NCBI RefSeq assembly: GCF_022045235.1
Contig: NW_027266341.1
Span: 38,829,517 to 38,876,000 of the forward strand
Origin: Haliotis cracherodii
Taxonomy: Eukaryota
Direction of reading: 5' to 3'
DNA: 46,484 nt
Shown here: positions 18,425 through 45,979 of the stretch, piece by piece
Numbering within the stretch: the first letter of the stretch is position 1
How the letters are laid out: every line of letters begins with the position of its first letter
Notes under the pieces: generated by a model
Database searches by the model: none
The model's input: the letters and a program-made list of their open reading frames with translations, nothing else
What the model was told of the DNA's origin: nothing
Position numbers and translations under genes: made by a program

Positions 18425-19849
18425 CTAAATTAGGCATACTATCCCCGGTGAACAGGGAGCCTTGATGCCAATGGGATGAAGAAGCTTGTACTTCCTGTGA
18501 CGGGACCTCCCTCTTCTGGGAGGTGTCCGATGTCTGGTGCCGTTCTGGACATCGCAACCCCTTGGATGTGTCCGTTGAGTGGCACCATTCTGGGTGGTCA
18601 GGACATCACAACCCCTTGGCGTCAATGTTGTATGACGGCCCTCAGCTGATAAAGGAAATAAAGCAAATAACAAACACACAATAAACACAGGATATGATTC
18701 ATATAGTTAATCATCTGAACATTCTGTTGGAGTACAATGAGAACTGAATGCTTATGATTGACGGGATAAACGAACATAATCCTATGCACATCCATGTCTG
18801 GCTTTCCGATTATGTTTCTAGGTCTGTAAGTACCATACAATTGCTCGGGAGTATCACCAATGGTATACGTCTGAGACCTGTATAACTTCTGGCTTTCCGC
18901 TTACAGCAAGCTGAGACGCCGTAATATGACTTGAATACCAAAGCGGCGTTAAACCCAACTCACTCACTCGCTCACCTTATGCGCAGTAAGTGGGTGACTG
19001 GGGCATATATTACATATGTAGTACATTAGGCTGTCTGGTACTGTTATGTCAAACCAATAGAATCAACGCCGTTTGGTTGCCACATGTCACAATCGTTCTT
19101 GATCACAGCTGAGATTGAGCTGTTGATTTGCATGAACTACCCACCATACAGACGCTATTATGGTCAAAATAGTCTTCAGTTGTGAGTGACTCTGCGTGTG
19201 ATGGAACAACTGAGGTAAAGAGGTCGCGTTCAAGATTATTGCACTCACATGGGGACGTGCATGAACGTGTGTGTTCAGTATACTGACTTACTAATGTGCC
19301 AGGCGGGGTAACAACAAATGCAATCTTGTAAACAGGGATAAAAATATGCTTACATTTTGATACTCATAGCTATTTTGTTGGTGATAAAGGCTCTCGTTGT
19401 CCATACCTACCTATCTTACTGGAGCCGGAAGCAGCTGGCAGCAGGACAGATCTGGTCACGTGACAGCACGGTCGCCGGAAGTTGGCTAATCTCCGACGTT
19501 CAAAGATCCGTGGCGACTTGAGGTGACATTGAGTAACAATCTGGTTGTCGGGTCCTCTCTGTTCGCAGACAAACACTCGGGGCCTGCCGTTACATTCAGG
19601 GGGGACGTACACGACGACCGTGTCTCCTACCAATATGTTCAGGGGGAGTTTGTCACCCAACAAAACGCATACAACATTCTCGTTCCCGAGCTGCACAATC
19701 GATTCATTGTTGTCTGACTGTGCGTACGGTGTGTCACCCAATATTCTATTTAAATCGTTTGCAGCTGACTTGCGAAAGAAAGCAATGATATTTCTCTGGT
19801 GCCCAATTTGTACAACACGCTTGATTTCTATGGTATTCTGGTTATTCAT
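18425..19849 (-). CDS. Paralog A: double RHIM-like protein, 219 aa (coding exons 19849-19411, 18645-18425)
   Basis: MNNQNTIEIKRVVQIGHQRN...SIVQLGNENVV...SSKI|AEGRHTTLTPRGCDV...; phase-1 GT-AG intron; total 660 nt; in-frame stop upstream of the ATG. Confidence 0.75.
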
Positions 19850-20671
19850 TTTCCGACATTTACATTTCAATTCTCTGTTCTTTTCAATGTCTGAATGTGT
19901 GACGTCACGCGTCCCCCCTTCAGTCCTACCTGACCCCGAGTGTGAACCCGTTCCTGATGTGACTGTTACTGTTTTGCCTTACAGAACCTGCACGGGGATT
20001 CATTCCAAAACAGACAATTCACTTCTTTCAATGTATACTAAATCCACGACTATTCACTTCTATCAATGCATACAAAAAACATGACAATTCACTTCTATCA
20101 ATGCATACCAAAACCAAGACAATTTGCTCATAGCGTTTAAAAGGCGAGATAGTGTGTAAACACTAATAACCAGCGTCGTGTGCGTAAAAGTTATAATCCA
20201 ATTATTAATATAATGAGCATCGATCCACGCAATTAGAATCGATGACACGAATCAACCAAGTCAGCGAGCCTGACCAACCGATCCCGTTAGTCGCCTCTTT
20301 ACGGCAAGCATGGGTCTGAAGACCTATTCTACCCCAGATCTTCACGGGTCTGATATGCCTGTGAGTTATTTTTATTTCTAAGTCAGTGAGATCGGTCAAT
20401 ATTAAGGTGTACCCTCAGGGGAATATGTAAAAATACACTTTCATATGTTATGTGGTCGTGGCAACGCCGTGTGTCGGGGAGAATGTGGTACAGACACTTA
20501 TTCAAGCATTCCTACGAGCAATGTATCGGCTGTGAGATGAAACTGGTGGCGAGACACCAGATATAGGCATGGCTTGGTGTTTATCGATGTAGACTGTTCG
20601 AACTATATACTGTCCTGACAGATATGCACGTAACACATATAATGAAGCCAAAGAAACAAAATGGCGCCTAC

Positions 20672-20760
20672 CTGTCCTGGCTGCCTCCAGTGCAGATAGA
20701 AACATCAGCTGCAGACTGGCGAAAACAACGCAATAGCCTGTCACAGCTCTTTTATACTGC
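20672..20760 (-). promoter_or_regulatory. Paralog A TATA box (20750-20756) and non-coding exon 1
   Basis: GCAGTATAAAAGAGCT followed by donor AGCCAGGACAG|GTAGGCG, which is conserved in copies A, B, C and E. Confidence 0.75.
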
Positions 20761-25171: not shown

Positions 25172-26512
25172 TCAGGCACGACGTGTACGTAGCCACTCAT
25201 TTGAACTGAGATGGCCTGGACGAGTGGAGGTCCTGTAGCAAGGTTTCCCTCGTCCCCTTGGGTGAGTCTGGTGAGGAGCACCATGCATGATGGTCAGGAC
25301 ATCGCAATCCTGGGAGGTCAAGGTCGTATCACGGCCCGCAGCTGACAGAAGGAAAGACATGTATACACAATTTGTTTGTAACAAATATTGATAATGAGTG
25401 AGTATGGTTTTACGCCGCCTTTAGCAATATTCCAGCAATATCACGGCGGGGGACACCACAAATGGGCTTCACACATTGTATCCATGTCGGGGATCGAAAC
25501 CGGGTCTTCGGCGTGACAAGAGCGCTTTAACCACTAGGCTACCCGACCGCCCCAAATATTAATAAATTTTACTACATAGGAGGGCATTCTGTTTACTATC
25601 AGTTAAATATATTAAGCGTTGACTATATATTTAATATTCTTCTTTTAAAGTGTGTGAGTAGGAGTGTAGGCAGAAGCTGTTTGAGGGCGACTTTGTAGTA
25701 TCCTCAGCAAATCAGTGGTTGATCATCTGAACATCAATCGCCAGCTATAGGTCCCCATCACATGGAATTAATCAGTTCACGTGAGTACTATTTATATTCT
25801 ACTTCTAATTTGGACACCCAATCCTCATTTGTAAGGCGTCACCTTCTACCACAGCAGGTTCTTTAATTAAGTGAGTGCTTAACACCGCTTTGGTCAGTGC
25901 TTTAGTTAAATCTGGGCGTTTACCTTCACGTGGGAGGAATACAGTAACTACAGAAGGTCCTAAACGTTGACGACGTCGGTGAAACCCACAGCACGGGAAC
26001 GGTATTAACAAAGTCAACTGGAGATTGGATCCAGAACTTCAGATGACTAAGTTGCCTCAACCTTTGTCCTTACCTGTCTTACTGGAGCCGGAAGCAGCTG
26101 GCAGCAGGACAGATCTGGTCACGTGACAGCACGGTCGCCGGAAGTTGGCAAATCTCCGACGTTCAAAGATCCGTGGCGACTTGAGGTGACATTGAGTAAC
26201 AATCTGGTTGTCGGGTCCTCTCTGTTCGCAGACAAACACTCGGGGCCTGCCGTTACATTCAGGGGGGACGTACACGACGACCGTGTCTCCTACCAATATG
26301 TTCAGGGGGAGTTTGTCACCCAACAAAACGCATACAACATTCTCGTTCCCGAGCTGCACAATCGATTCATTGTTGTCTGACTGTGCGTACGGTGTGTCAC
26401 CCAATATTCTATTTAAATCGTTTGCAGCTGACTTGCGAAAGAAAGCAATGATATTTCTCTGGTGCCCAATTTGTACAACACGCTTGATTTCTATGGTATT
26501 CTGGTTATTCAT
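25172..26512 (-). CDS. Paralog B: double RHIM-like protein, 202 aa (coding exons 26512-26074, 25341-25172)
   Basis: Exon 2 nearly identical to A; donor AAGACAG|GTAAGG; exon 3 is C-like but diverges or frameshifts after GKPC. Confidence 0.72.
25395..25553 (-). mobile_element. tRNA-derived short SINE in intron 2 of B
   Basis: A/B boxes, (ACTC)n tail, TSD aaatatt(g/a)ataa; same insertion at 31693 in C. Confidence 0.9.
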
Positions 26513-27381
26513 TTTCCGACATTTACATTTCAATTCTCTGTTCTTTTCAATGTCTGAATGTGTGACGTCACGCGTCCCCCCTTCAGTCCTACCTGACCCC
26601 GAGTGTGAACCCGTTCCTGATGTGACTGTTACTGTTTTGCCTTACAGAACCTACACGGGGAGAGACAAAACATGGTTAGTATTACATACTAGTCTTTGTA
26701 AAGGTGTCAAGGCAATTCACTGCTATCAATGCATTCCAAAACCATGACTATTCACTTCTATCAATGCATACAAAATCTATGACTATTCAATTCTATCACT
26801 GCATATCAAAACCAAGACAATTTGCTCATAGCGTTAAAAAGGCGAGATGGTGTGTAAACACTAATAACCAGCGTCGTGTGTGTAAAAGTTATAATCCAAT
26901 GATTAATACAATGAGACATTAGAATCGATGACATGCATCAACCAAGTCAGCGAGCCTGACCAACCGATCCCGTTAGTCGCCTCTTACGACAAACATAGTT
27001 GCCTTTTACGGCAAGCATGACTTGCTGAGGACCTATTCTACCCCAGATCTTCACGGGTCTGATGTGCCTGTGAGTTATTTTTATTTCTAGGTCAGTGAGA
27101 TCGGTCAATATTATGGTGTAGTTTCAAGGGAATATGGAAAAATACACTTTCACATGTTATGTGGTCGTGGCAACGCCGTGTGTCGTGGAGAATGTGGTAC
27201 AGACACTTATTCAAGCATTCCTACGAGCAATGTATCGGCTGTGAGATGAAACTGGTGGCGAGACACCAGATATAGGCATGGTTTGGTGTTTATCGATGTA
27301 GACTGCTCATACTATATACTGTCCTGACAGATATGCACGTAACACATATAATGAAAGGCAAAGAAACAAAATGGCGCCTAC

Positions 27382-27470
27382 CTGTCCTGGCTACCTCCAG
27401 CGCTGGTTGAAACATCAGCTGCAGACTAGCGAAAACAACGCAATAGCCTGTCACAGCTCTTTTATACTGC
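27382..27470 (-). promoter_or_regulatory. Paralog B TATA box (27460-27466) and non-coding exon 1
   Basis: Same TATA and donor motif as A. Confidence 0.75.
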
Positions 27471-31436: not shown

Positions 31437-33005
31437 TTAGTCGCGGTGAAGGATCTTCTCAGGCACGAAGGGTACGTAGCCATGCTTTCTGGTGACCTTG
31501 ACCCCGATGGGATGGACGAGCGGGTACTTGCTGCAGCAAGGTTTCCCTCTTCCCCTTGGGTGAGTCTGGTGAGTGCCACCATGCCTGATGGTCAGGACAT
31601 CGCAATCCTGGGAGGTCAAGGTCGTATCACGGCCCGCAGCTGACAGAAGGAAAGACATGCATACACAATTTGTTTGTAACAAATATTGATAATGAGTGAG
31701 TATGGTTTTACGCCGCCTTTAGCAATATTCCAGCAATATCACGGCGGGGGACACCACAAATGGGCTTCACACATTGTATCCATGTCGGGGATCGAAACCG
31801 GGTCTTCGGCGTGACAAGAGAGCGCTTTAACCACTAGGCTACCCGACCGCCCCAAATATTAATAAATATTACTACATAGGAGGGCATTCTGTTTACTATC
31901 AGTTAAATATATTAAGCGTTGACTATATATTTAATATTCTTCTTTTAAAGTGTGTGAGTAGGAGTGTAGGCAGAAGCTGTTTGAGGGCGACTTTGTAGTA
32001 TCCTCAGCAAATCAGTGCTTGATCATCTGAACATCAAACGCCAGCTATAGGTCCCCATTACATGGATCAATCAGTTCACGTGAGCACTTTTAATATTCTG
32101 CAACTAATTTGGACACCCAATCCTCATTTGTAAGGCGTCACCTTCTACCAAAGCAGGTTCTTTAATTGAGTGAGTGCTTAACACCGCTTTGAACAGTGCT
32201 TTAGTTAAATCTGGGCGTTTCAGCTTCACGTGGGAGGAATACAATAACGACAGATGGTCCTAAACGTTGACGACGTCGGTGAAACCCACAGCACGGGAAC
32301 GGTATTAAAAAAGTCAACTGGAGATTGGATAAAAAATCCAGATGACTAAAGGTCCCACCTCTGCGTAAAGAATTGCGGCGTCCGTGAACCCAGGTTCTTG
32401 AAACTGGAGAGATATTTCATATTTTATTATAATGTAACATTGCTAACAAAGGCTTTACGCAAGTTGCCTCAACCTTTGTCCTTACCTGTCTTACTGGAGC
32501 CGGAAGCAGTTGGTAGCAGGACAGATCTGGTCACGTGACAGTACGGTCGCCGGAAGTTGGCAAATATCCGACGTTCAAAGATCCGTGGCGACTTGAGGTG
32601 ACATTGAGTAACGATCTGGTTGTCGGGTCCTCTCTGTTCGCAGACAAACACTCGGGGCCTGCCGTTACATTCAGGGGGGACGTACACGACGACCGTGTCT
32701 CCTACCAGTATGTTCAGGGGGAGTTTGTCACCCATGCATACATGTACAACGTTATTGTTCCCCAGCTGCACAATTGGTGCAGAAGTGGTAGACATTGCTC
32801 TACTTAAGTCATTCATATCTTTCTCTTGACAAAATGAAATGGTGTTTTTCTTGTGCCCAATTTGCACAATGCGTCGAATTAAGATTCCAGTGTGATCAAC
32901 TGGGCGCTCATTGCAGCTGACGTCACACGCCCCCCGTGTGTCAGGCATAACCCCGAGTGTGAACAGATCCCTGGGTCGAATGTCACCTCTTGCCTCTGTC
33001 TCCAT
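31437..33005 (-). CDS. Paralog C: double RHIM-like protein, 240 aa (coding exons 33005-32486, 31639-31437)
   Basis: Acceptor tatcgcag|acatcATG; METEARG...RRIVQIGHKKN...PIVQLGNNNVV...SSKT|AAGRDTT...EKILHRD; total 723 nt. Confidence 0.78.
31693..31853 (-). mobile_element. tRNA-derived short SINE in intron 2 of C
   Basis: Same site and sequence as 25395-25553. Confidence 0.9.
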
Positions 33006-33103
33006 GATGTCTGCGATAAAGTGGAGAAAGAATATTAGTATTAAGAACGAGATAAGGAGTAAAGATAAACTCCATTCCATAATCCATAGGTCATTTGTCA
33101 CTA

Positions 33104-35953: not shown

Positions 35954-36080
35954 CTGTCCTGGCTACCACAGTACCGAATCGAAATAGCATCAGCAGCCTT
36001 CGCAATGGAAACCCTACCCCACCGCGTGGCAGCTCTTATATACTGCCCGATTCCCCAGCAACACAATCATTAACCAATCG
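35954..36080 (-). promoter_or_regulatory. Paralog C promoter: TATA (36036-36042), inverted CCAAT (36074-36078), exon 1 donor
   Basis: CAGTATATAAGAGCT, AACCAATCGG and AGCCAGGACAG|GTAGGCG. Confidence 0.75.
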
Positions 36081-40644: not shown

Positions 40645-41502
40645 TCAGTCGCGGTGAAAGATCTTCTCGGGCACGAAGGGTACGCCGCCATGCTTTCCGG
40701 TGACCTTGACCCCGATGGGATGGACAAGCGGGTACTTCCTGCCACAAGGTTCCCCTCTTGTGAACCTCTTGTGAGTGGCACCATGCCTGATGGTCAGGAG
40801 ATCGCAATCTCTTGTCGTCAAGGTCGTATGACGGCCCGCAGCTGACAGAAGGAGGGACATATAAACATTATTTTGGAAAGACATATTAATTATTATTACA
40901 ACACCGATGGGTTTTGAGTTTACTATAAGTGAAATGCATTATATTCTGCTTCTCCGTCGTCCAAAGATCCGTGGCGACTTGAGAGTAACGATCTGGTTGT
41001 CAGGTCCTCTCTGTTCGCAGATAAACACTCGGGACCTGCCAACATACACGACGACCGTGTTTCCTATCAGTATGTTAAGGGGGATTATGTCTCCTAGGTA
41101 TATATGTACAATGTTTTTCTTCCTGAGCTGTACAATTGTTGCACTGTTATTAGATTTAGTTAGCAATAATCTTTTCGAGCAATTCATATCTTTCTCTTGA
41201 ATATAAGAAAACGTAATTTTCTTGTGGTCAATTTTCACAACGCGCGTGGACTAGAGGGTGATCAGAGGACACTCAATACAGCTGTCTAGCGTTTGGTCAG
41301 ATTGTTAGCACTGCTTGACATCTACCAACTTTTCTTTTCAACTTTTCTTTGAAACTGGCCGTGAAACACCTGTATTAAGGTGATTCAATTCTGAGAATTG
41401 AACTTTAATTGTGTTTTCTTTTGAAAGTCCGAAGGTACGACGTCACATGGCCCCGCCGAGTGTGAACAGATCCCAGCGTCGAAAGTCACCTCTTACCTCC
41501 AT
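40645..41502 (-). pseudogene. Paralog D: disrupted or truncated copy with both RHIM-like cores altered
   Basis: MEVRGDFRRWDLFTLG then a stop; RVVKIDHKK and IVQLRKKN replace VQIGH and VQLGN; exon 2 ends at RRRSRI*; exon-3 frame (40841-40645) is intact. Confidence 0.7.
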
Positions 41503-41594
41503 TATGAAGCGTAGGAACAAGATCAATATCTGATAGAAACAGCTTCAACTACACACCCCTTCCAGAAAGAAAACTACGCAATAGTGCGATGGTA

Positions 41595-41650
41595 GCTCTT
41601 ATATACTGTCCTGTTCCCATTACCAAAACGATAACCAACCAATCGGCTAC
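41595..41650 (-). promoter_or_regulatory. Paralog D promoter: TATA (41599-41605) and CCAAT (41639-41643)
   Basis: Same motifs as C. Confidence 0.7.
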
Positions 41651-42799
41651 GTGCATTCAGAAGTGTACATCTTTACCAGGTGAGCGTGCATAATATCACG
41701 TGCCAGAATGTCCCGATTTGGGGCTTCGCGTAATGTCATTCAATCTAAAATATTTATTCAATCGGCAGTACTTTAGTGAAATTAACTAAATAAATGTATA
41801 TCGATGTAGATTAAATGGACGAACAGATGTTGATCAAACACTGGAGGGGGTGGACACGGTATACTTAACCGGAGTCATTATTTTTTATGTAGAATGATTA
41901 GTGGTTTCTGATCTTGTGGGTGCCACTTTGAGTGATATTCATGACATATGGAATATGAATAAACAGCCTTCAAGGTGAATGTCTGTTTTATTCATTGCAA
42001 CATTAATTGTATCGTTTAGTGACAGGGTTTCGAATCACCGACCTTCCGCTCTCCTGACATACGCTCTAACCACTAGACCACTGAGGCCGTCAGCTATATG
42101 AGGTACACGTGTATTTAGAGGGGAAACATAGAAACACAACTGACCCAGTTGTCGTAACTGTTAGTACCTGCTAGTCCTGGGTTCAAATCCTAGATTCGCA
42201 TGGATTATGACCCTTGGTTAGTTGTCATCACTATACTTGTTATCATGGGTTTCACAAACAGAGGTAGACATCTCCGATGTGCGTCATAAAGGCAGCTCAC
42301 AGATAAAGCTGACATGCTTTCATTTTTTTGAAATTCTGTTTTGTGGCTTCAGATTCAAAATGACTGAACCCACGTGACAGAATACAGACTGTGCTATGCC
42401 TGACTTCCGTCATCCGTTGTAATCTGTAATTACGTTTCTCAATATTATCACATGTGTGAATTCACAATTTCTTCAAATGACACAATAAACACAAAATCGT
42501 TATCTCAACTGTTTTATTGTTATATGTACAAAGGTATAAGGGAAAACAAAGTTAACATCCTGTTTTGCAAAATAATACTTCGTTGTTCGTTGACAAAAAA
42601 AAAGGCTCTAAAGGGAGTATGGAAGCTATATACGTGTAGAGCCATCTACAGAACTCCTCTTCGAGGATACAGAAACATTTTCCGTTGATAAATAATGTGA
42701 ATAATCACCACCATCTTAGCAACAGAAAATAACCGTAATGCACACGCATTGATTTAGCCGATGCGGCATACACTTGTATTCCATACAGGAATAGGTAAA

Positions 42800-43417: not shown

Positions 43418-44601
43418 TTAATCCTTCATAAACATGATCAGGGTCAGGATCATCATAACCCAAAGCCTAATCTTAAGATCAATGTCCTCGTATTTGAAGT
43501 GTGGCCTCAAGCTGCGCTTCACAGAGTTGGTTGGACGTGTGACCTTGGACTCCATACAAACTGTCCGTGTATGTTGTATGCCTGTCCTCCTTGACCTTGA
43601 CCGATGCTTCTTCCTTCCGGTTCGGACTCGTCTTGGCATTACTGAAATAATAATCAAAAAGGAACATGAGGTTATTTAAATCACCTGGTTTCATTTGTCT
43701 TTGAACTGAAATGGAATACTGAATAATTGGAATGGGATCATGTTGAAACCACCACGGGCATTTTCCATCAGGAGATGGTGACAATAAAAGCAGTCAGTTC
43801 ATTTTTAGTAAGAAATTAACACATTCAATTTCTTTTCCCAGCAAAATATACCCTTTAGATATATGTATTTGTTAATTATGAAAAAGAGAGAGAATATCCA
43901 TGCTGTCTGAAATATATTGGTCTAGATAAGGTGTTCCCTTCCACTGATTGTTTTCATCTATATCACCTAATATCTTGATTGAAAACATTTTCAGTGACCA
44001 TAATACGCACACTCTTACCATATATATGATTATACCAAATAATCTGATACCAGAGACAGTACTCATAATGAACTCCTCCACTATTAACTCTCCTCCACCT
44101 CCCTCCACCATCGTCATATTCTCCCTGCCTTCCTTCAACGGAGCCATCTCCGTCTCTTCTCCTTCCTTCACTGACGCCAGTGCCTCCTCCATCTCTCCCT
44201 CCAGTGGAATATTGATCTCTCCTCCATCTTCCTCGCCCACCAACATATTCTCCCTGCTTTCCTTCAACCGAGTCATCTCCGTCTCTTCTCCTTCCTCCGA
44301 CGACGTCAATGCCTCCTCCATCTCTTCCTCCAGAGGAATATTGATCTCTCCTCCACCTTCCTCCACCATCGTCATATTCACACTCTTCTTCTGACAAAGC
44401 ATGATCACTTTTTCTTCTCCAAGCTCCACCAACACCCCCAGGTTGACCTCATTCCATCTCTTTATCAGAGATGTCTTCAGTGTTACCGCAGTTAGCGCTA
44501 GGCTCTACTGGATTGCTAGAATCTCTTCGAGGTCTGACATTCATTCTTTCCCCACTCGTGTTCTCGTCTCTTCTGTTACGTAAGTTCGTTTGAATTTCCA
44601 T
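43418..44601 (-). pseudogene. Paralog E: divergent Gly/Arg/Asp-repeat protein, 268 codons with one internal TGA (exons 44601-44019, 43641-43418)
   Basis: Acceptor tttcag|acaATG; donor TATG|GTAAGA in phase 1; exon 3 in frame; TGA at 44449-44451; 43-aa repeat x2.3; hydrophobic C-terminus. Confidence 0.6.
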
Positions 44602-45604
44602 TGTCTGAAACCATAAGATGGCATTGCGAAACTTATTATTGGCATAATCTGTAATCTGATGCTACCGCGTTTCCTTTCTCTCAAATTTTGCATACCTGAA
44701 GGATATCTTCATTCTTAGAACCTAAAAAGTCGTTTCAGCTCTTTAAACAACAACATGGGCGCATAACCACCTAACACTAACAACTAAATAGCAAACAAGT
44801 GGGTTAGTGAATGAGTAAATTGCCAGTCAGCACTACTACCCAGGACGCATTTTACCGAGGCAAGAGCGTGCACTAGCCTTATCATTTAAGTCTTTTTTCC
44901 ATCCTTGCAATACCAAGCCGACTTTTCTGTGCTAAATATGACTGGACTATTGCACATGTCGATAGTCTAGTCAGAGAACATTAACAAAATCAACATACAC
45001 GACAGGTACACCTTCGTATGAAACTGAAAGTATTGTCGTCGCCTATGGTAGTCACCATCTTTGTGAAGCCATACGAGATAAGAAAAGTGATCTGATTGGA
45101 TATCGCGTTTTCAATACAAGGGGCACAACTCATGATCTACACAAGGTGGCACCAGGGTCGAGCCATGGAAAGTGGCCTTGATGTGGCAAGGGTAAAAACT
45201 AGACATTGATATAGGCTAGTGGACACGCTTGCCTCAGGAAGATGCCCCGGGCGAGGCAAACCAGTGACTACAACCATGTGGGACACAAGGATGGGCTTCA
45301 CACATTGTATCCATGTCGGTATTCGAACCCGGGTCCTGGGCGTGACGAGTGACCACTTTAACCACAAGAGTACCCAACCGCTCCGTTCAAAGTAACACCA
45401 GTGTTCAATGTCCTGTGTGACTTCAGTCTGCAGTACATATAGATGTAGTGGAGTTGGGAGAGGCCTGTCCAAAAGCGACAAACCCCTTCATATAATCCAT
45501 TCTACGCTTACAAAAATATCATAAGCATGTATTTATGTATCACAAGTTACGTGTAGTGTCTTCAAACAGGCACCACTAAGGAAAGGAACGAAAATAACGC
45601 CTAC

Positions 45605-45742
45605 CTGTCCTGGCTCCCACATTATCTGATAGATACAGCGTCGGCTGCCTTTTCAGTCCATCTAAAGGACAACGTAGTAGCGCGATGGTAGCTCTTATTT
45701 ACTGTCCGGTTTCACATAGCAAAGCAATCATTAACCAATCGG
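45605..45742 (-). promoter_or_regulatory. Paralog E promoter: TATA-like TAAATAA (45695-45701), CCAAT (45735-45739), exon 1 donor
   Basis: CAGTAAATAAGAGCT, AACCAATCGG and AGCCAGGACAG|GTAGGCG. Confidence 0.7.
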
Positions 45743-45979
45743 TTAATCGATGTTAGGACATCAAGCCTCGTGGTTGAAAGAGGTTTCGCTCTTTTCGCCA
45801 ACCCTTTCCGTCACTTTCCGTAATCGCAGGAAGACTCGGCTGTGAGTGTAGGAAGGGTTATCTCCCATTAGTTAGACAGCCAGTTGTCAGACACTGAAGT
45901 AGGGGATTAATTAAGACAGTGCCCACAACAATGGTACAGTCCTACTCAGTGAACTAATTAGGCATGTCTCAAGGTTCAT

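What the first reader, a model, noticed from the sequence alone, without database searches (positions are those of the whole stretch)
32690..32890. RHIM-like cores conserved while the surrounding sequence diverges between paralogs
A/B read IKRVVQIGHQRNIIAFFRKSAANDLNRILGDTPYAQSDNNESIVQLGNENVVCVLLGDK; C reads IRRIVQIGHKKNTISFCQEKDMNDLSRAMSTTSAPIVQLGNNNVVHVCMGDK. VQIGH, VQLGN.NVV and GDK are invariant, while the linker differs in sequence and length. This suggests purifying selection on the motifs. Two further strand-Gly-Asp units (VLLGD, ILVGD) follow, suggesting up to four stackable beta-arch units.
Basis: partly seen in the sequence, partly recalled or inferred. Interest (0 to 1): 0.7.

Follow-up and report, generated by a model that had tools for sequence, protein, structure and literature searches.

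The report
Abalone tandem half-RHIM gene family
This is a small abalone gene family, with no relative found outside abalones, whose proteins keep two short motifs resembling half of the amyloid-forming RHIM immune-signalling motif but carry no recognisable signalling domain, so they would most likely act as decoys that damp such signalling (untested).

Summary
The quoted peptides are real. They lie in exon 2 of a four-copy tandem cluster of three-exon genes on the minus strand: A, B and C are open (219, 202, 254 aa) and D is decayed. Relatives were found only in abalones. VQIG...N and VQLG..N are kept in 13 of 13 loci while the linker diverges (0.40 identity), and B versus C shows purifying selection on the two units (pS 0.56, pN 0.21). 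Three corrections. (1) A and B are one sequence here. (2) GDK and what follows lie in a near-identical B/C tract, likely gene conversion, and GDK reads DDK in 3 of 13 loci. (3) The 54 residues after the motifs are more conserved (about 0.90) than the motif units (0.76-0.79), so the cores are not islands. The units match only the core and C-terminal half of RHIM. Pfam scores are 6.7-10.1 bits against a cut-off of 20, whereas other RHIMs in this genome pass. The four-beta-arch idea is not supported. Best reading (0.4): a Pirk-like half-RHIM decoy for this genome's TIR-RHIM and RHIM-death-domain adaptors. Close rival: a folded Cys-rich orphan domain. No earlier scan note on this family.

The parts
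35954..36043 (-). Gene C exon 1 with TATA-like box (36033-36043) and first ATG (35990); transcription start inferred near 36010
   Evidence: exon 1-2 join in contigs of X2 and X11
32486..33010 (-). Gene C exon 2 (N-terminal variable part, units 1 and 2, conserved Cys-containing block)
   Evidence: AG/GT ends; contig ends at 33010-33013 and 32486
32832..32882 (-). Unit 1 of C, LIRRIVQIGHKKNTISF; tetrad VQIG 32867-32856; net charge +1 to +4 across six homologues
32775..32831 (-). Variable linker; tetrad spacing 27-39 aa; one X1 contig lacks 20 bases at 32817
32736..32774 (-). Unit 2 of C, IVQLGNNNVVHVC; tetrad VQLG 32771-32760; best RHIM C-half match
32461..32735 (-). Tract nearly identical between B and C (likely gene conversion); encodes GDKLPLNILVGD...KSPRIFER, the best-conserved block
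   Evidence: B-type contigs diverge from C exactly at 32734 in 3 of 4 runs
31437..31639 (-). Gene C exon 3 coding part, to the stop; whole C model 254 aa
   Evidence: exon 2-3 join in an X1 contig
25172..27467 (-). Gene B: exon 1 ends 27382, exon 2 26650-26074 (main ATG 26512), exon 3 25341-25172; 202 aa; the exon 1 ATG would give a 31-codon upstream ORF
   Evidence: the 26650 acceptor is inferred from sequence
18425..20757 (-). Gene A: exon 1 ends 20672, exon 2 19987-19411 (main ATG 19849), exon 3 18645-18425; 219 aa; near-identical to B in exon 2
40645..41250 (-). Decayed copy D: in-frame TAG before unit 1, cores read VKID and VQLR, internal deletions, early stop, exon 3 remnant intact

Best explanation
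These spliced abalone genes encode small proteins with two conserved half-RHIM units and no detectable effector domain, which likely act as Pirk-like decoys that would slip into or cap the RHIM amyloid stacks of the animal's own immune adaptors and so would damp signalling. Shown: gene structure, conservation of VQIG...N and VQLG..N, lack of any Pfam domain, and canonical RHIM proteins in the same genome (a TICAM-like TIR-RHIM protein; a RHIM exon with a death-domain exon about 2.2 kb downstream). Inferred: cytosolic location (no hydrophobic leader seen by eye in the spliced forms); that the Gln/Gly/Asn residues form cross-beta ladders; that the basic unit 1 would pair with the neutral or acidic unit 2 or with a partner RHIM rather than stack on itself; that the missing N-terminal RHIM strand and the bulky conserved block right behind unit 2 would stop fibril growth.
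For: Tetrads and the following Asn are kept in 13 of 13 loci. B versus C: pS 0.56, pN 0.21 over 30 unit codons, p=0.002 on rounded counts. Both cores are lost in the decayed copy D. Against 5 RHIMs of this genome, the core plus C-half of the units scores 17.4-24.2; leave-one-out scores of those RHIMs are 19.8-22.8; the top 2 of 7,134 Gly-anchored background windows score 21.4 and 16.2. RHIM is the only Pfam family shared by several members (4 of 9, below cut-off). Possible partners: 5 of 8 PF12721 matches in G000 are over the cut-off; L011 (17.1 bits, under it) carries VVQIGNDNTVKL after a domain matching TICAM2 TIR at E 5e-5; L033 has RHIM and death-domain exons. Precedent: Pirk/Rudra has repeats resembling the C-terminal half of RHIM (PMC4262963) and inhibits IMD signalling (PMC2483946). 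The region before unit 1 is poorly conserved (0.20) and A/B start 11 residues before VQIG.
Against: Pfam RHIM only 6.7-10.1 bits against a cut-off of 20, and no hit for the C- and B-type proteins P0001 and P0002; the cluster is not among the 8 genome matches. The unit region finds no PDB chain at E<=10, whereas control RHIM L007 finds RIPK3 at E 0.006. The N-half scores -13.6 to +1.2 against 0-17.2 for the genome's RHIMs. Unit 1 has one extra residue before the Asn. RHIMs are described as flanked by unstructured regions (PMC4262963), but unit 2 runs straight into the best-conserved, hydrophobic, Cys-containing block. No kappa-B-like site was found in 720 bases around any of 5 promoter candidates (0.05 expected each, so weak), whereas rudra is reported as an IMD target. 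Pirk also has a full C-terminal RHIM-like motif, which this family lacks. No immune gene was recognised by eye among 155 long ORFs in 200 kb of flanks.
Confidence: 0.4

Rival explanations
1. The roughly 100 conserved residues fold as one globular beta-rich domain, probably held by metal-binding Cys/His, that serves as an interaction module unrelated to RHIM. VQIG and VQLG would be duplicated strand-turn-strand hairpins and the linker a surface helix or loop.
For: The block after the motifs is more conserved than the motifs (0.89-0.90 against 0.76-0.79), also when only cross-lineage pairs are counted (0.82-0.85 against 0.63-0.71). Five Cys and 2 His are invariant in 6 of 6 proteins. The family fails RHIM thresholds. 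A single full motif arises in 1.5-4e-4 of shuffles, so a genome holds several by chance, and one duplication makes two. The low-confidence model draws hairpins with a helix in the linker.
Against: No confident fold (pLDDT 29 and 44), which with 8 close sequences says little. The invariant residues include exactly the Gln, Gly and Asn that a RHIM needs, in both units. With only three or four close species, high identity downstream may partly reflect concerted evolution.
Confidence: 0.37
2. A positive RHIM scaffold: the two units stack within one chain like the two-coil HET-s solenoid and seed or bridge fibrils of the TIR-RHIM and RHIM-death-domain adaptors, amplifying signalling.
For: Two related units (profile E 2e-4, hand-cropped) joined by a length-variable linker, with complementary charge (+1 to +4 against 0 to -1); tandem RHIMs occur in ZBP1 and invertebrate proteins (PMC4262963).
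Against: No sensor or effector domain to trigger or relay assembly; the N-terminal RHIM strand is missing.
Confidence: 0.13
3. A four-unit beta-arch stack or a secreted structural amyloid (shell, mucus, gamete coat).
For: Glycines recur every 10 residues (VQLG, VCMG, ILVG) in C; one annotated isoform (P0007) has a hydrophobic N-terminus.
Against: The third Gly is Asp in 3 of 13 loci; units 3 and 4 lack Gln and Asn; a Pro lies between them; self-alignment finds no internal repeat (E 0.73). The hydrophobic start of P0007 is the translated pyrimidine tract of intron 1, and the spliced forms lack it.
Confidence: 0.05

Closest known systems
[quoted passage not shown]
   Same: Small (197 aa) protein without other recognisable domains, with internal repeats resembling the C-terminal half of RHIM (PMC4262963, PMC2483946).
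   Different: No sequence homology shown; Pirk has a C-terminal RHIM-like motif plus 18-residue repeats, here two units 27-39 aa apart followed by a Cys-containing block; no kappa-B site found; inhibition untested. A resemblance of design, not membership.
Canonical RHIM (Pfam PF12721: RIPK1, RIPK3, ZBP1, TRIF)
   Same: VQIG/VQLG tetrad followed by Asn and alternating hydrophobic residues; tandem copies as in ZBP1.
   Different: N-terminal strand absent (unit 2) or closer by two residues (unit 1); below cut-off; no kinase, TIR, Z-alpha, CARD or death domain; not flanked by disorder on the C-terminal side.
Viral decoy RHIMs (MCMV M45, HSV ICP6, VZV ORF20; CARD-RHIM of bivalve iridovirus BiIV1)
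   Same: Proposed mode of action: sequestering host RHIM proteins in non-signalling amyloid (PMC13506858, PMC12452177 passages).
   Different: Host-encoded, spliced, tandem-duplicated; half motifs; no shown activity.
HET-s prion-forming domain
   Same: Two related but non-identical repeats joined by a variable linker.
   Different: No HeLo-type effector, no adjacent NLR seen, no sequence match to PDB HET-s chains.

Membership tests
RHIM (PF12721) | Core tetrad (I/V)Q(I/V/L/C)G | tested here: met
   VQIG and VQLG in 13 of 13 loci; lost in copy D
RHIM (PF12721) | Conserved Asn after the Gly, then an apolar strand | tested here: met
   Unit 2 G-x-x-N-x-V-x-h in 13 of 13; unit 1 has the Asn one place later
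RHIM (PF12721) | N-terminal hydrophobic strand and loop before the tetrad | tested here: not met
   N-half scores -13.6 to +1.2 against 0-17.2 for 5 RHIMs of this genome; Pfam aligns only positions 8-18 or 12-18 of 22
RHIM (PF12721) | Profile score at or above the curated cut-off (20 bits) | tested here: not met
   6.7-10.1 bits in 4 of 6 proteins, none in 2; 5 other loci of G000 pass
RHIM (PF12721) | Flanked by unstructured regions | tested here: inconclusive
   N-terminal side and linker are variable; C-terminal side is a conserved hydrophobic block; models have pLDDT 29 and 44
RHIM (PF12721) | Cross-beta amyloid assembly dependent on the tetrad | not testable with these tools
   needs ThT, EM or ssNMR
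Pirk/Rudra | Small protein with no effector domain | tested here: met
   202-274 aa; no Pfam family over cut-off
Pirk/Rudra | Repeats resembling the C-terminal half of RHIM | tested here: met
   two units score like the C-half of this genome's RHIMs
Pirk/Rudra | Sequence homology to insect Pirk | tested here: inconclusive
   only abalone hits, none in 11 and 46; no direct comparison with Pirk was made
Pirk/Rudra | Induced by the pathway it inhibits | tested here: inconclusive
   no kappa-B consensus in 5 of 5 promoter stretches of 720 bases; contigs cannot show expression level
Pirk/Rudra | Binds receptor or adaptor and blocks signalling | not testable with these tools
   needs co-IP and reporter assays

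The most novel reading that the evidence does not exclude
Abalones have independently evolved, and expanded by tandem duplication, a host-encoded RHIM decoy built from two half-RHIMs: a Pirk-like brake on amyloid immune signalling outside insects, implying that molluscan TIR-RHIM and RHIM-death-domain adaptors signal through regulated amyloid.
Probability: 0.35. Interest if true: 0.72.

Novelty: new variant of a known kind. Interest (0 to 1): 0.42.

Why it matters
RHIM amyloid signalling is well studied in mammals and flies. In the papers I read, the named RHIM-bearing inhibitors are insect Pirk and viral decoys. This genome holds canonical RHIM adaptors, and a cockle iridovirus encodes a CARD-RHIM protein (PMC12452177), so molluscs probably use the system. 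A host family made of half-RHIMs would show a convergent brake and would give a natural test of which half of the motif caps and which extends a fibril. If the rival holds, it is a lineage-restricted protein domain of unknown fold, of modest interest. Six literature searches listed no paper on this family; the library lacks most subscription journals and I saw only the top listings.

Tried and rejected
AlphaFold2 on 8-sequence alignments: pLDDT 29 (full length) and 44 (115-aa domain); unusable. Fold searches on the second model: no Foldseek match at E<=0.001, best VIA Z 4.5, which is background. Complex prediction of units 1-2 with three copies of the L011 RHIM: no verdict, score 0.01, alignment not used, controls not folded; no evidence either way. 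ESM Atlas: no usable hit for P0001. Searches for longer, fused forms: none among 518 and 7,993 candidates (weak, and one search covered only 462-2000 aa). PDB by profile: 0 at E<=10. A distant genome match, L051 (E 0.18), was rejected as probable chance: AT-rich frame that appears to run into a repeat, no other family exon and no DNA similarity in 59.5 kb around it. No run is on record as RNA; the kind is a guess, and I rely only on contigs that join exons. Contig depth was not used to rank genes. The 183-aa plus-strand ORFs over A and B are treated as antisense shadows, since splice sites and TATA-like boxes are on the minus strand. Pfam on 150 of 210 ORFs around four canonical RHIM loci named a same-strand partner domain only for L005/L033 (death domain) and a BIR about 15 kb from L008. 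Kleino et al. 2017 was not available; I know it only as cited in other papers. Supplements were not read; the RHIM alignments in the figures and supplements of PMC4262963 could bear on whether molluscan half-RHIM proteins were already listed.

Full report
What is there. The window is animal DNA; the homologues are all labelled Haliotis. Four related copies lie head to tail on the minus strand. A search of G000 with exon 2 of C found these four and nothing else (4 matches of 7 candidates); a second search with P0003 found the same cluster plus one weak match that I reject as chance. Each copy has a short exon 1 behind a TATA-like box, a long exon 2 and an exon 3. For C the exons are 35954 to about 36010, 32486-33010 and 31437-31639, giving 254 aa, identical to P0001 at 244 of 254 places. 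Contigs join exon 1 to exon 2 in X2 and X11 and exon 2 to exon 3 in X1; these runs are only guessed to be RNA. B gives 202 aa and A 219 aa. The three models equal public 'uncharacterized' proteins P0008-P0010, which may stem from this genome. D has an in-frame stop before unit 1, reads VKID and VQLR at the cores and ends early.

Checking the observation. The quoted peptides are correct. B and C are 52-80% identical in 45-column windows down to about 32735 and 93-100% below it until the exon ends. B-type contigs in 3 of 4 runs leave the C sequence exactly at 32734. Synonymous divergence is 11.5 of 20.5 sites in the two units and 3 of 65.5 in the tract. This points to gene conversion or a chimeric origin (inference), and it makes GDK, ILVGD and all that follows useless as paralogue evidence. 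For the two Gln units the evidence is real: pN 0.21 against pS 0.56 (p=0.002 on rounded counts); the two tetrads show 2 synonymous and 0 replacement changes; the first 11 linker codons give pN 0.36, pS 0.55. Units against linker in replacement rate is only p=0.087. Of the codons changed in C-type contigs of X1, X2 and X11, none is in a tetrad and one is in unit 1, at its first residue (X4 and positions below 32690 were not classified).

Larger alignment. Fifteen public proteins were found; two second isoforms were dropped, leaving 13 loci under four species labels. VQIG, VQLG and the following Asn are kept in 13 of 13. Mean pair identity: N-terminus 0.20, unit 1 0.79, linker 0.40, unit 2 0.76, GDK-VYVP 0.89, PEC-IFER 0.90, rest of exon 2 0.77, exon 3 0.47. 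Five Cys and two His are invariant in the 6 proteins checked. GDK is DDK in 3 of 13 loci. Outside abalones nothing was found: 6 hits among 48 candidates, 2 hits among 1.84 billion representatives, none among longer proteins.

Is it RHIM? Pfam PF12721 gives 6.7-10.1 bits in 4 of 6 proteins against a cut-off of 20 and aligns only the second half of the model. The same model finds 8 places in G000, 5 over the cut-off, none in this cluster. A control RHIM from G000 finds RIPK3 in the PDB at E 0.006, while the unit region finds nothing at E 10. Scored against five RHIMs of this genome, the core and C-half of the units reach 17.4-24.2 (leave-one-out range 19.8-22.8; background top two 21.4 and 16.2 of 7,134), while their N-halves reach -13.6 to +1.2 (range 0-17.2). 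So these are half-RHIMs by sequence, not members of the family as curated. The pattern is rare by chance: 0 in 399,996 flank codons, and two copies in 0 of 200,000 shuffles; but one copy arises in 1.5-4e-4 of shuffles and the two units may come from one duplication (profile E 2e-4). The proposed third and fourth units lack Gln and Asn; only ILVGDTVVVY weakly resembles unit 2.

Possible partners. L011 holds a TICAM2-like TIR domain (E 5e-5) followed by a RHIM-like motif, VVQIGNDNTVKL, close to unit 2. L005 has a RHIM exon with a death-domain exon about 2.2 kb downstream on the same strand, an IMD- or RIPK1-like layout (my reading; that the exons belong to one gene is inferred). A cockle iridovirus encodes a CARD-RHIM protein (PMC12452177, passages).

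Mechanism. Kajava et al. (PMC4262963, parts 1-2 of 4 read) describe Pirk/Rudra as having repeats that resemble the C-terminal half of RHIM, and note that like charges disfavour in-register homo-stacks. Rudra binds the RHIM-like region of PGRP-LE, disrupts receptor-IMD complexes and has no other recognisable motif (PMC2483946, passages; PMC9531809 and PMC13506858, passages). The abalone proteins share that design: small, no effector, two half-RHIMs, unit 1 basic and unit 2 neutral or acidic. I therefore favour a decoy that joins adaptor fibrils through the tetrad and Asn ladder and stops their growth (0.40). Every step after the sequence is inferred. Against it stand the failed thresholds, the conserved hydrophobic block behind unit 2, and no kappa-B site near the promoters. 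A folded Cys-rich domain with two hairpins is nearly as likely (0.37); a positive scaffold less so (0.13). Structure prediction could not decide.

Verdict. Six literature searches (listings seen) showed no paper on it, and three look-ups in the scan's notes showed nothing on this family. Interest 0.42; new variant of a known kind if the RHIM reading holds.

Noticed in passing
window 27382-27440 and 26650-26550 (B); 20672-20730 and 19987-19890 (A), minus strand: The exon 1 ATG homologous to C's start would give a 31-codon upstream ORF ending before the main ATG, so A and B appear to have dropped the N-terminus and start 11 residues before VQIG; acceptor inferred.
   Followed up: partly
window 32817: One contig of run X1 (depth about 8) lacks 20 bases in the linker of C, which would shift the frame between the two units: a possible null allele or assembly error.
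   Followed up: no
window 25172-25240 and 18425-18560, minus strand: Exon 3 tails differ by frameshift (B against P0002) and by an internal duplication (A); the C-terminal tail is weakly constrained.
   Followed up: partly
window 33011-33083, minus strand: An annotated isoform (P0007) starts inside intron 1 and translates the pyrimidine tract into a signal-peptide-like leader; one X4 contig runs into this intron. Probably intron retention.
   Followed up: partly
window 11946-13442, plus strand: Single-ORF gene with leucine-rich repeats and an Ig I-set domain and, by eye, a signal peptide and a transmembrane helix: a surface receptor about 5 kb from gene A.
   Followed up: partly
L011 (G000:C1:17257385-17260438): Long open frame (634 aa) with a TICAM2-like TIR domain and a C-terminal RHIM-like motif: a TRIF-like adaptor in a mollusc, missed by Pfam at E 0.1. 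A review passage says TRIF is absent from lower phyla (PMC13506858).
   Followed up: partly
L005, L006, L033 (G000:C16, about 3.88-3.93 Mb): Two near-identical RHIM exons 53 kb apart, one with a death-domain exon downstream: duplicated IMD- or RIPK1-like genes.
   Followed up: partly
window 41524-41700 and 45553-45745, minus strand: Copy D has two promoter/exon 1-like segments; only the distal one keeps the splice donor.
   Followed up: no
window 2915-3898 and 43872-44504, minus strand: Repetitive ORFs of 327 and 210 aa without Pfam matches; a similar acidic repeat recurs in L023-L024.
   Followed up: partly
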